The notes: generated by a model from the letters alone, not told the origin. Shown: positions 32,462 to 35,537, counted from the stretch's first letter. The stretch: 64,000 nucleotides of DNA from Escherichia coli (GCF_016903815.1 NZ_CP069973.1); one strand, 5' to 3'. Program-made: numbers and translations.

Positions 32462-33742
32462 TCAATCAATTGCGCTTGTCATCAGTTCTCTTGCCGAATG
32501 CAGCCGGATATAAGCAACCCACGCCGCCAGCAACGTGAATGCCCCGGCAAACAGGAAGCAGGCCGCATAGCCAAAATGTTGAGCAACAACGCCACCGATA
32601 ACGCCTGCCAGAATGGCGATTGCCGCATCAGTACATTGAAAGAGGGTGAAGTCGACACCGGCCTGCAAAGGCGATGAAAGCGACATCAGCGTGGCGTAAA
32701 GACAGACCAGCGCGCAGGCCAGCGAAATGGACTGGACAATGACCAGACACTGGAGAATCTGCAGCAGCAGATGACCCGGCGCCATCATGAGCGTCATCAC
32801 CACCGCCAGCAGCGCGATCCCCTGGACGCCATAAGCCGTCAACAGCGCTCTGCCGGGTGAGGTGTATTTCATCAGCAATCCGCCGGCCAGCGTTCCTGCT
32901 ATGCCCGCTGCAATATTGCCGCCGCTGAACAACGCGCCCAATGCGGACATGCTCAACCCATGATCCAACAACAGCGGTGCCAGAAGAGGCAGCACAAACC
33001 GCATGCCTGAATTCAGCATCAATACCAGCAGTAAGCCCAGGCGCGCCTGCTTCCTCCTTAGCGCATAACCTAACGCCGGAACATGCAGGATAGTCGCTGT
33101 TCGCGTCGGCTCCGTAATGCGCCACAGCGGGAGTGACAGCGCCATAATCAGCACCGCCATCATCAGCATGGCGACAGGCCAGCCGGATGCCGCCGACAGC
33201 ATCAGGAACACCCCGCCGCCGCACATCATTCCCAGATAGCTGCCGCCGACCTGCACGCTGTTTCCCCAGCCGTAACCCGTGCGGGTCAGTTGATCGACAC
33301 AAAAGCCGTCGCTGGCGATATCAATGGTGGAGGCGACCGTGCCTGCCACCATAAACAGAACAAATAACGCGACGATTTGCGTATCGGGGAATCCCCCTTC
33401 TCGCCTAAACCAGCCAATCGCTGCGGCAATAGTCAGGATCGCCGCTAGCGCGACCTGACCACGCAGGATTAACATGCGGGAACGGCGTTCCTGGCTACCG
33501 GGCGGAAGCCGCCAGCGCTCGATCCACGGCGCCCAAATAAACTTCAGCGCCCAGGGCAGCATAAACAGGGTTGTCGCACCGGCAAGCGCCAGCGAACCGC
33601 CAGCAGCGCGCACCAGCGCGGGTAAGGACTGCATAGACAGCGCCGATACCAGACTCTGCGTCACATAGACGCCGGCAATAGCAAAAATCACCCGCCCGGT
33701 CGTCAACGTCGGCGGTTTCACATTCGACTGAACATCACTCAT
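32462..33742 (-). CDS. ybtX: MFS-type inner-membrane protein YbtX/Irp8
   Basis: Start placed at the ATG at 33742 (GGAGAG RBS, overlaps the ybtQ stop as ATGAGTGA). The ORF track offers a 467-aa alternative starting at 33865. Confidence 0.8.
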   Translation of the reverse strand: MSDVQSNVKPPTLTTGRVIFAIAGVYVTQSLVSALSMQSLPALVRAAGGSLALAGATTLFMLPWALKFIWAPWIERWRLPPGSQERRSRMLILRGQVALAAILTIAAAIGWFRREGGFPDTQIVALFVLFMVAGTVASTIDIASDGFCVDQLTRTGYGWGNSVQVGGSYLGMMCGGGVFLMLSAASGWPVAMLMMAVLIMALSLPLWRITEPTRTATILHVPALGYALRRKQARLGLLLVLMLNSGMRFVLPLLAPLLLDHGLSMSALGALFSGGNIAAGIAGTLAGGLLMKYTSPGRALLTAYGVQGIALLAVVMTLMMAPGHLLLQILQCLVIVQSISLACALVCLYATLMSLSSPLQAGVDFTLFQCTDAAIAILAGVIGGVVAQHFGYAACFLFAGAFTLLAAWVAYIRLHSARELMTSAID

Positions 33743-35537
33743 GCACCCACTCTCCAGACGCGGAAACCCCGTCGTCGCGCCACACGCGCGCGGCCATTTG
33801 CGCCTGCCACAGCGCCTGATAACGCCCATGATGTGAGAGCAATTGCGCATGAGTACCCTGCTCAACCACCTGTCCCTCTTCCATCACCAGAATGTTTCCG
33901 GCCCCGGCGATGGTGGATAAACGGTGAGCGATGATAATCACCGTCCGGTTGTAAACCAGGTTATCGATCGCTTTTTGCACCGCCAGCTCGCTTTCAATAT
34001 CCAGCGCGGCAGTCGGTTCATCGAGAATGACGACTGGCGCGTTTTTCAATAACGCTCTGGCAATGGAAATCCGCTGGCGCTCGCCGCCCGATAGCTGGCC
34101 GCCCATCTCTCCCATTGGCGTCAGCCAGCCTTGCGGAAGACGGGAAATAAACTCAAGGCACTGCGCCGCGCGGGCGGCCTCTTCTACCTCCTGCCGCGTC
34201 GCCTGTGGGCGCGCGATACGGATATTCGCCAGCAGCGTGTCATCAAACAGCCAGACATCCTGGAAAACAACAGAAATCAGGCTATTGAGCTGTTCCGGCG
34301 TCAGGCGGCGAATATCGACGCCGCCAATAGAAATCTGCCCTTGCTGCGGATCGGCATAGCGCATTAACAGTTTGGTGACGGTAGTTTTGCCTGCGCCGGA
34401 GGCACCCACCAGCGCGCTCATACTGGCTGCCGGGAACGTCAAAGAAACATGATTAAGCGCGTGGCCGTCGCCTTCTTCGTAGCGATAGCTGACGTTGTCA
34501 AAGCGGATATCGTAACGTTCCGGCATCTCGCTTTGCTCTGCGACGGGAAGCGGTGCTATCGCCATAAACTGCTCAATCCGTTGCAGGGCGCTGGCGATCA
34601 GTTCCACAACCGAGGTGTAGCTGATAAACATCGCCATCGGTTCTGCGAAGCGCATAATCATCGCGACGGCGGCAATCAAAAAGGCGAGGTTCAGAGTGCC
34701 CGTCACTACCCAGACGATCCCGGATAACACCACCACCTGTAGGCCCAACTCCACGACGCTGGCGATCAGCATCGTCGCGCCAGCGCCCTGACGGTGAGTG
34801 CGGGTCTGTAAGTTTTCCAGCGCATTGAAATGCGCCAGCAGCGCCCGGCTTTTATCGGCATCGCTGCCGCAGGTGCGCAATACCATCATCCCCTGAGCAA
34901 ATTCAACGATATCGCCGCTCAGACGCTGGTGCGCTTCCCCCAGCGTCTGCATTTGTCGCCGCATCGCCGGGCGGCGCCAGTAATAAAACGGCACCAGCAG
35001 AGGGAAGATCAGCAACATCACCAGCCCCAGCCGCCAGTCTATCCACAATGTCGCCAGCGACGCCGTCAGCGGCGTGACAATGGTGAGCAGCAAAATATTG
35101 GCTATCGCAATAACATAATTGAGGTTTTCATCCACGCTGCCCAGCAGCAAGGCGTTCATTTCACCCGCCCTGCCGCGCTGGAGCTTCTCCAGCGGCACGC
35201 GGCGTAACTGCTCGCCAAGTCGCAGGCGCAACTCATGGGTGGCCTGCGCCAGATGACCACGGTATTCAAAGCCCAGGCCATACCAGCGTAGCACCAGCGT
35301 CACAATTGCGGCGACGCTGAAGGCCATAGCCCAGTTAAGAAGTTGCGGCGCGTCTCCCCGTAACAGCGCATCAATGATCGGATAAAGACAGGCAAAGGCG
35401 ATCCCCTGCATGAATGCCGCCAGCAACAGCGCCAGCATACTGCGTCGCAGCATCCTGGCCTGACTGCCAACGCTGGAGATAAGCAGGCGCCAGATGACGC
35501 GCCAGGCCAGGTTATCCGCAGGATTATTGTCTTTCAT
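33735..35537 (-). CDS. ybtQ: yersiniabactin ABC transporter permease/ATPase YbtQ (600 aa)
   Basis: N-terminal TM domain plus C-terminal ABC ATPase (Walker A GASGAGKTT, signature LSGGERQR). Confidence 0.92.
   Translation of the reverse strand: MKDNNPADNLAWRVIWRLLISSVGSQARMLRRSMLALLLAAFMQGIAFACLYPIIDALLRGDAPQLLNWAMAFSVAAIVTLVLRWYGLGFEYRGHLAQATHELRLRLGEQLRRVPLEKLQRGRAGEMNALLLGSVDENLNYVIAIANILLLTIVTPLTASLATLWIDWRLGLVMLLIFPLLVPFYYWRRPAMRRQMQTLGEAHQRLSGDIVEFAQGMMVLRTCGSDADKSRALLAHFNALENLQTRTHRQGAGATMLIASVVELGLQVVVLSGIVWVVTGTLNLAFLIAAVAMIMRFAEPMAMFISYTSVVELIASALQRIEQFMAIAPLPVAEQSEMPERYDIRFDNVSYRYEEGDGHALNHVSLTFPAASMSALVGASGAGKTTVTKLLMRYADPQQGQISIGGVDIRRLTPEQLNSLISVVFQDVWLFDDTLLANIRIARPQATRQEVEEAARAAQCLEFISRLPQGWLTPMGEMGGQLSGGERQRISIARALLKNAPVVILDEPTAALDIESELAVQKAIDNLVYNRTVIIIAHRLSTIAGAGNILVMEEGQVVEQGTHAQLLSHHGRYQALWQAQMAARVWRDDGVSASGEWVHE

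What the first reader, a model, noticed from the sequence alone, without database searches (positions are those of the whole stretch)
32462..33865. ybtX start-site ambiguity within the ybtPQXS operon
The longest ybtX ORF begins at 33865 and would overlap the ybtQ 3' end by about 130 nt with an Arg/Cys-rich, non-membrane-like extension. The ATG at 33742 has a GGAGAG RBS and overlaps the ybtQ stop (ATGAGTGA), typical of translational coupling. I chose 33742, but database annotations may differ.
Basis: inference. Interest (0 to 1): 0.2.

Follow-up and report, generated by a model that had tools for sequence, protein, structure and literature searches.

The report
ybtX start codon: short form correct

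Summary
On the minus strand the longest ybtX ORF starts at TTG 33865 (467 codons). An in-frame ATG lies at 33742. GGAGAG (33755-33750) sits 7 nt upstream of it. The ATG overlaps the ybtQ stop as ATGAGTGA (TGA 33737-33735).

- RefSeq annotates exactly this start in E. coli genomes carrying the island.
- The exact 426-aa protein is on record on at least 1000 contigs. The 467-aa form appears once (GenBank ARR61280.1).
- None of the 120 listed homologues covers the 41-residue extension, and Met42 is invariant in a 26-sequence alignment.
- In five of nine distinct non-E. coli orthologous loci an in-frame stop lies 0-20 codons upstream of the ATG.
- One Salmonella lineage has a 26-nt, frame-breaking deletion inside the putative extension but keeps the Shine-Dalgarno (SD) sequence and the ATG.
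- ybtQ wobble positions, which are second codon positions of the extension frame, vary freely there.
- The open frame is expected by chance: 48% of synonymous recodings of the YbtQ tail keep it open.

SD strength alone does not decide it (-6.8 vs -6.3 kcal/mol). No direct initiation-site data were found. Verdict: already known, low interest. In passing: RefSeq's ybtP start (570 aa) conflicts with the 600-aa ORF and with the 600-residue YbtP chain in PDB entry 6p6i.

The parts
32462..33742 (-). ybtX coding sequence, 426 aa plus stop (yersiniabactin-associated zinc MFS transporter)
   Evidence: RefSeq annotation of the 100%-identical E. coli locus maps to these coordinates. The exact protein is on at least 1000 contigs under this name. 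Pfam MFS_1 hit.
33740..33742 (-). ybtX initiation codon ATG
   Evidence: Invariant first column in the 26-orthologue alignment. ATG is the called start in all 11 loci examined.
33750..33755 (-). Shine-Dalgarno-like GGAGAG, 7 nt upstream of the ATG, inside the ybtQ coding sequence
   Evidence: Sequence read. Predicted duplex with the 16S rRNA 3' end is -6.8 kcal/mol, in the top 5.4% of positions in the operon. It is retained in the Salmonella lineage that carries the 26-nt deletion.
33735..33737 (-). ybtQ stop codon TGA, inside ATGAGTGA (8-nt overlap with ybtX)
33743..33865 (-). 41-codon stop-free stretch in the ybtX frame upstream of the ATG. It codes only for the YbtQ C-terminus, in the ybtQ frame.
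   Evidence: Not conserved in the extension frame: 22/41 identical against K. oxytoca, versus 33/41 for the YbtQ tail. Substitutions concentrate at ybtQ third positions. The frame is closed or frame-shifted in orthologues. The open frame is expected by chance.
33735..35537 (-). ybtQ coding sequence (600 aa)
   Evidence: RefSeq annotation. PDB chain 6p6i_B is 600 aa.
31130..32434 (-). ybtS (salicylate synthase), the next gene, 27 nt downstream of the ybtX stop, with its own GAGAGG SD
35524..37326 (-). ybtP, first gene of the operon. The 600-aa ORF is given here; RefSeq calls 35524-37236, 570 aa. It overlaps ybtQ by 14 nt.

Best explanation
ybtX is translated from the ATG at 33742 and gives a 426-residue MFS permease. 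The gene is the third cistron of the ybtPQXS operon of the High Pathogenicity Island. Its ribosome-binding site (GGAGAG, 7-nt spacer) lies in the last codons of ybtQ, and its ATG overlaps the ybtQ stop (ATGAGTGA). Ribosomes finishing ybtQ are therefore positioned to re-initiate or to recruit at ybtX, which is translational coupling. The 41 stop-free codons upstream in the ybtX frame are the +1 reading of the YbtQ C-terminal coding sequence in a 58-59% G+C gene and are not translated in that frame. Shown here: the anatomy, the annotation, the lack of conservation and the substitution pattern. Inferred: that coupling operates, and that no minor long isoform is made.
For: 1. RefSeq annotates ybtX as 1281 nt starting at the position equal to 33742, both in a 100%-identical and in a 97%-identical E. 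coli genome.
2. The exact 426-aa protein is on at least 1000 contigs. The 467-aa form is on one, and the 462- and 455-aa forms are not on record.
3. None of the 120 listed homologues (identity down to 40%) covers more than 91% of the 467-aa query; lengths cluster at 410-438 aa.
4. Met42 is invariant in the alignment of 26 sequences, and nothing aligns to residues 1-41.
5. In orthologous DNA the ybtX frame is closed by a stop 0 codons upstream (Serratia symbiotica L005), 4 (Brenneria L006, free-standing gene with AAGGAG SD), 4 (L012), 12 (L011) and 20 (Salmonella L009).
6. Salmonella L009 carries a 26-nt deletion inside the putative extension. It would frame-shift a long YbtX, yet it keeps TGGAGAG, the ATG and an intact 426-aa YbtX.
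7. In the overlap, ybtQ third codon positions (second positions of the extension frame) differ at 0.366 against K. oxytoca, compared with 0.262 in the rest of ybtQ. The figures are 0.098 vs 0.088 for Salmonella L008 and 0.098 vs 0.063 for S. odorifera. Extension-frame identity is 22/41, against 33/41 for the YbtQ tail and 81% BLASTP identity for the K. oxytoca YbtX.
8. The family profiles start just after Met42. RhtX/FptX profile position 1 aligns to residue 58 of the long form. AmpG structures align with an N-terminal offset of only 2-5 residues to the 426-aa form. The first hydrophobic segment begins at residue 59 of the long form.
9. A published E. coli Nissle ybtX deletion uses +1281 as the gene end, which fits the 426-aa model (PMC8636617).
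Against: There is no direct measurement of the initiation site; no ribosome-profiling or N-terminal proteomics paper mentioning ybtX was found. The TTG at 33865 has a GAGG SD almost as strong as that of the ATG (-6.3 vs -6.8 kcal/mol). Among the closest island lineages (E. coli, S. odorifera, Salmonella L008, K. oxytoca) the 47-codon open stretch, the TTG at -41 and the ATG at -36 are all retained. This is expected, because the YbtQ amino-acid sequence itself leaves few ways to create a +1 stop. Orthologue start positions come from gene callers and are not independent experimental evidence.
Confidence: 0.95

Rival explanations
1. The long form is real. YbtX, or a minor isoform of it, initiates at TTG 33865 (467 aa), or at ATG 33850 or 33829 (462 or 455 aa). 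This would add an Arg/Cys-rich cytoplasmic N-terminal tail encoded in a 131-nt dual-coding overlap with ybtQ.
For: The frame is open. TTG 33865 has a GAGG SD-like element (-6.3 kcal/mol, top 8.5% of positions in the operon). The open frame and the TTG are retained in four related island lineages. One GenBank record annotates the 467-aa form. A positively charged N-terminal tail would not violate the positive-inside rule for an MFS protein whose N-terminus is cytoplasmic (established knowledge).
Against: No homologue carries the extension. The frame is closed or frame-shifted in 5 of 9 distinct orthologous loci, including an 88%-identical Salmonella YbtX. Substitutions fall preferentially on the second codon position of the extension frame, the opposite of purifying selection. 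ATG 33829 has no SD at all (+1.9 kcal/mol). The open frame is expected by chance.
Confidence: 0.03
2. The true start lies downstream of 33742, for example the in-frame GTG at 33721 (codon 8), and gives a slightly shorter protein.
For: An in-frame GTG exists 7 codons downstream. Residues 2-16 are only weakly conserved in distant orthologues.
Against: The ATG is invariant at this alignment position in all 26 sequences and is the called start in all 11 loci, whatever lies upstream. The GTG has a poor SD (-2.3 kcal/mol, median of the background). SD-like purine runs sit 6-8 nt upstream of the ATG in most orthologues. MSDVQSNVKP is conserved among relatives down to 81% identity.
Confidence: 0.02

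Closest known systems
YbtX (Irp8) of the Yersinia / E. coli / Klebsiella High Pathogenicity Island, RefSeq WP_001568969.1
   Same: Same protein. The window's 426-aa product matches exactly a sequence named 'yersiniabactin-associated zinc MFS transporter YbtX'. The locus is 100% identical to E. coli strain 7/2 over the 1.6 kb searched. The operon order is the same, ybtP-ybtQ-ybtX-ybtS next to tRNA-Asn. Published function: dispensable for iron uptake, but needed with yersiniabactin for zinc acquisition when ZnuABC (and, in E. coli Nissle, ZupT) is absent (PMC8636617, PMC10136090).
   Different: Nothing of substance. Common allele-level differences only (for example Arg at WFRREGG and Leu at TILHVP, where most orthologues have Gly and Pro).
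RhtX/FptX family siderophore MFS permeases (TIGR02718) and AmpG muropeptide permease (TIGR00901; PDB 9c3f, 8zgz)
   Same: Same MFS fold class, with homology along the full length. Profile position 1 of RhtX/FptX aligns 16 residues after Met42. AmpG structures align with nearly the same N-terminal offset to the 426-aa form.
   Different: Scores are far below the curated cut-offs (125.9 vs 356 bits; 93.6 vs 350 bits). YbtX is a relative of these families, not a member.
Translationally coupled overlapping cistrons in bacterial operons (ATGA and ATGNNTGA type start/stop overlaps)
   Same: The downstream start codon overlaps the upstream stop, and the SD lies in the upstream coding sequence. In orthologous loci the overlap is 8 nt (ATGAGTGA) or 4 nt (ATGA). 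ybtP/ybtQ overlap by 14 nt in the same operon.
   Different: Coupling itself was not measured. No stable RNA structure sequesters the ybtX SD (z = 0.40), so independent initiation is also possible.

Membership tests
YbtX (yersiniabactin-associated zinc MFS transporter) | Sequence identity to the named reference protein | tested here: met
   The exact 426-aa sequence is in the collection under that name. The DNA is 100% identical to a RefSeq locus annotated ybtX.
YbtX (yersiniabactin-associated zinc MFS transporter) | Position between ybtQ and ybtS in the ybtPQXS operon of the island at tRNA-Asn | tested here: met
YbtX (yersiniabactin-associated zinc MFS transporter) | MFS permease architecture (multi-helix membrane protein) | tested here: met
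   Pfam MFS_1, 56.5 bits against a 33.4-bit cut-off. Hydrophobic segments run from residue 59 of the long form to the C-terminus. AmpG structures match over residues 31-402. The helices were not counted rigorously.
YbtX (yersiniabactin-associated zinc MFS transporter) | Role in yersiniabactin-dependent zinc acquisition | not testable with these tools
   Taken from the literature only (PMC8636617; PMC10136090).
RhtX/FptX siderophore transporter subfamily (TIGR02718) | Score at or above the curated NCBIfam cut-off | tested here: not met
   125.9 bits against a cut-off of 356.15. Related, but not a member by this criterion.
AmpG muropeptide MFS transporter family (TIGR00901) | Score at or above the curated NCBIfam cut-off | tested here: not met
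   93.6 bits against a cut-off of 350.
Translationally coupled gene pair | Start codon overlapping or abutting the upstream stop, with an SD inside the upstream gene | tested here: met
   ATGAGTGA and GGAGAG with a 7-nt spacer. The arrangement is conserved as 8-nt or 4-nt overlaps in orthologues.
Translationally coupled gene pair | Translation of the downstream gene depends on translation of the upstream gene | not testable with these tools
   Needs reporter fusions with premature stops in ybtQ.
Dual-coding (overprinted) gene overlap | Purifying selection in both frames, seen as suppressed synonymous change in the older frame | tested here: not met
   The ybtQ wobble-site difference rate in the overlap is equal to or higher than in the rest of the gene in all four comparisons.

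The most novel reading that the evidence does not exclude
In the classical island lineage (E. coli, Yersinia, Klebsiella, S. odorifera), the +1 frame of the ybtQ tail stays open. There, a small fraction of ribosomes might initiate at TTG 33865, or shift +1 near the end of ybtQ. That would produce an N-terminally extended YbtX or a YbtQ-YbtX fusion with some lineage-specific role.
Probability: 0.02. Interest if true: 0.3.

Novelty: already known. Interest (0 to 1): 0.05.

Why it matters
It matters little beyond annotation hygiene. The correct start (426 aa) is already in RefSeq, and the rare 467-aa GenBank model is an over-extension. The practical point is that the ybtX ribosome-binding site and first codons lie inside ybtQ. 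Deletions or tags designed around ybtX must therefore spare the ybtQ 3' end. One published E. coli Nissle deletion spans -108 to +1281 and so also removes the YbtQ C-terminus. Conversely, changes to the ybtQ tail can alter ybtX expression.

Tried and rejected
- SD strength as a discriminator: rejected as decisive. The ATG at 33742 scores -6.8 kcal/mol and the TTG at 33865 scores -6.3, and both lie in the top 5-9% of positions in the operon.
- An RNA structure at the ybtQ/ybtX junction that could enforce coupling: nothing beyond shuffled controls (z = 0.40).
- Significance of the open upstream frame: rejected. Open runs of this size are common in alternative frames of these G+C-rich genes, and 48% of synonymous recodings of the YbtQ tail keep the frame open.
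- A curated YbtX-specific NCBIfam HMM: none was returned. Only sub-threshold RhtX/FptX and AmpG hits appeared.
- The original Y. pestis descriptions, to see what size they reported: PMC3148425, PMC5532734 and PMC4132657 are not held. Fetherston 1999 has no PMC id.
- Papers combining ybtX with ribosome profiling, N-terminomics or translational coupling: none among the ten top-ranked papers shown.
- Not done, as disproportionate to the question: scans of the genome or metagenome contig collections, structure prediction and fold search.

Full report
**What is there.** The window carries the Yersinia-type High Pathogenicity Island of E. coli, inserted at tRNA-Asn (29784-29859). On the minus strand lie ybtS (31130-32434), ybtX, ybtQ (33735-35537) and ybtP. 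On the plus strand lie ybtA, irp2, irp1, ybtU, ybtT, ybtE and fyuA. The region 32400-34000 is 100% identical to E. coli strain 7/2. It is present in 2267 of 5426 complete E. coli genomes, mostly at 99% identity or more.

**Checking the observation.**
- The longest ORF in the ybtX frame runs from TTG at 33865 to the stop ending at 32462, 467 codons.
- ybtQ ends with TGA at 33737-33735, so the long ORF would overlap ybtQ by 131 nt.
- The ATG at 33742 is in frame, 41 codons downstream of the TTG.
- The sequence reads ...tctGGAGAGtgggtgcATGAGTGAtg... GGAGAG lies at 33755-33750, followed by a 7-nt spacer, and the ATG and the ybtQ TGA are interlocked as ATGAGTGA.
- The 41-residue extension has 8 Arg, 4 Cys and 5 Gly and is not hydrophobic (mean hydropathy -0.27, against +0.89 for the rest).

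**Is the open upstream frame more than chance?** No. Stop-free runs of at least 47 codons occur in 7 of the 8 alternative sense frames of ybtP, ybtQ, ybtX and ybtS (55-59% G+C), 2-4 per frame where present. I also re-coded the YbtQ C-terminus with synonymous codons drawn from the operon's own usage. The +1 frame stayed open over the 41 codons in 48% of 20,000 trials. The YbtQ amino-acid sequence leaves few ways to make a +1 stop.

**Which start is used: annotation.** RefSeq/PGAP annotates ybtX as 1281 nt (426 aa), starting at the base that corresponds to 33742. This holds both in the identical strain and in a 97%-identical strain. The exact 426-aa product is recorded on at least 1000 contigs as 'yersiniabactin-associated zinc MFS transporter YbtX'. 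The 467-aa version exists once (GenBank ARR61280.1, 'MFS transporter'). The 462- and 455-aa versions are not on record. A published E. coli Nissle ybtX deletion is described as -108 to +1281, which uses the 1281-nt gene model (PMC8636617).

**Which start is used: comparative evidence.**
- A search with the 467-aa form returned 120 listed homologues, with identity down to 40%. None covers more than 91% of the query, which is the 426-aa part. Typical lengths are 410-438 aa.
- In an alignment of 26 sequences, Met42 is the first occupied and invariant column.
- Those starts are gene-caller predictions, so I also read the DNA upstream of nine distinct non-E. coli orthologous loci.
- The ybtX frame is closed by a stop immediately upstream of the ATG in Serratia symbiotica (75% identical).
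- It is closed 4 codons upstream in a Brenneria locus (61%). There the gene is free-standing, next to a divergent AraC regulator, with no ybtQ upstream and an AAGGAG SD.
- It is closed 4 and 12 codons upstream in two metagenomic loci, and 20 codons upstream in a Salmonella lineage (88%).
- That Salmonella lineage carries a 26-nt deletion within the putative extension. The deletion shortens YbtQ to 590 aa and turns the 8-nt overlap into a 4-nt ATGA overlap. It would frame-shift any long YbtX. Yet it retains TGGAGAG, the ATG and an intact 426-aa YbtX.
- In an Enterobacter locus (58%) the frame is open for 87 codons, but it has only one GTG and no similarity to the E. coli extension.

**Substitution pattern in the overlap.** The ybtX frame is the ybtQ frame shifted by +1, so ybtQ third positions are second positions of the extension frame. 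If the extension were coding, ybtQ wobble sites should be frozen there. They are not. The table gives difference rates at ybtQ third positions.

| Comparison with the window | In the 41 overlap codons | In the rest of ybtQ |
|---|---|---|
| K. oxytoca | 0.366 | 0.262 |
| Salmonella L008 | 0.098 | 0.088 |
| S. odorifera | 0.098 | 0.063 |

Both differences between two E. coli alleles in this stretch are silent in ybtQ and non-synonymous in the extension frame. Against K. oxytoca the extension frame is 22/41 identical, the YbtQ tail is 33/41, and the K. oxytoca YbtX is 81% identical by BLASTP. The extension behaves as an out-of-frame by-product.

**Family boundaries.** These agree with the short form.
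- Position 1 of the RhtX/FptX profile aligns to residue 58 of the long form.
- Solved AmpG structures align with only a 2-5 residue N-terminal offset to the 426-aa form.
- The first hydrophobic segment starts at residue 59 of the long form.

The SD argument is not decisive. The best duplex with the 16S rRNA 3' end is -6.8 kcal/mol for ATG 33742 and -6.3 for TTG 33865, where a GAGG lies upstream. No unusual RNA structure marks the junction (z = 0.40). Coupling remains an inference from the overlap geometry and from its conservation as 8-nt or 4-nt overlaps. No direct initiation-site data for ybtX were found.

**Mechanism.** ybtX is the third cistron of ybtPQXS. All junctions are tight: ybtP/ybtQ overlap by 14 nt, ybtQ/ybtX overlap by 8 nt, and ybtX/ybtS are separated by a 27-nt gap. 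Each downstream gene has an SD-like element in the preceding sequence. Ribosomes terminating at the ybtQ TGA are 5 nt past the ybtX ATG and can re-initiate. The SD also allows de novo initiation. The product is the 426-aa MFS permease. The literature implicates it in yersiniabactin-dependent zinc acquisition but not in iron uptake.

**Comparison with what is known, and novelty.** This is YbtX itself, with the start already used by RefSeq. It is related to the RhtX/FptX and AmpG families but scores below their curated thresholds. Nothing here is new. Interest is low.

**Side observations.**
- A more consequential start-site conflict sits two genes upstream. RefSeq calls ybtP as 570 aa (start 37236). 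The ORF from ATG 37326 gives 600 aa. The PDB YbtP chain 6p6i_A is 600 aa and aligns 1-600, and homology to MsbA and IrtA begins at residue 15-19, upstream of RefSeq's Met31.
- The island's integrase is truncated or frame-shifted.
- Some metagenome-derived 'YbtQ-YbtX fusion' proteins read through the open +1 frame after indels in the ybtQ tail.

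Noticed in passing
window 35524-37326 (minus strand), ybtP start: RefSeq annotates ybtP as 570 aa starting at ATG 37236, which has AGGAAGG upstream. 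The ORF from ATG 37326 is 600 aa. The PDB YbtP chain (6p6i_A) is 600 residues and aligns 1-600. Homology to MsbA and IrtA begins at residue 15-19, upstream of RefSeq's Met31. The RefSeq start is probably 30 codons too short.
   Followed up: partly
window 30010-30936 (plus strand), next to tRNA-Asn 29784-29859: The island's tyrosine integrase is truncated: a 308-aa ORF, annotated as a frame-shifted pseudogene in the identical strain 7/2. Strain EC16 has an intact 420-aa gene. This suggests an immobilised island.
   Followed up: partly
proteins P0018 (718 aa), P0043 (485 aa), P0007 (564 aa): P0018 and P0043 are YbtQ::YbtX read-through fusions. They switch into the open +1 frame within the ybtQ tail (…THAQLLS|FMDVIRRCG…), probably through assembly indels. 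P0007 joins about 190 N-terminal residues of YbtQ in frame to YbtX at LVRAAGGSL, an internal deletion.
   Followed up: partly
L009 (Salmonella enterica, GCA_007367525.1) about 2960-3004: A 26-nt deletion in the ybtQ tail shortens YbtQ to 590 aa and converts the ATGAGTGA overlap into ATGA. It leaves the ybtX SD and ATG untouched.
   Followed up: yes
L006 (Brenneria sp. g21c3) 1-4269: The ybtX orthologue (61% identical) is free-standing, 192 nt from a divergent AraC-type regulator and a TonB-dependent receptor, with no ybtPQ upstream. The permease is therefore not tied to the ABC importer.
   Followed up: no
L005 (Serratia symbiotica AP019531.1) about 1000-3000: No gene is called upstream of ybtX, although recognisable ybtQ-tail sequence is present. 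ybtP and ybtQ appear to be pseudogenised in this symbiont while ybtX stays intact.
   Followed up: no
window 33634-33742 region; literature (PMC8636617): The published E. coli Nissle ybtX deletion spans -108 to +1281. It therefore also removes about the last 36 codons and the stop of ybtQ, a possible confounder for phenotypes attributed to ybtX alone.
   Followed up: no
window 60651-63418 (plus strand), downstream of fyuA: In the identical strain the annotation shows an inverse-autotransporter beta-domain gene followed by a frame-shifted Ig-like-domain pseudogene.
   Followed up: no
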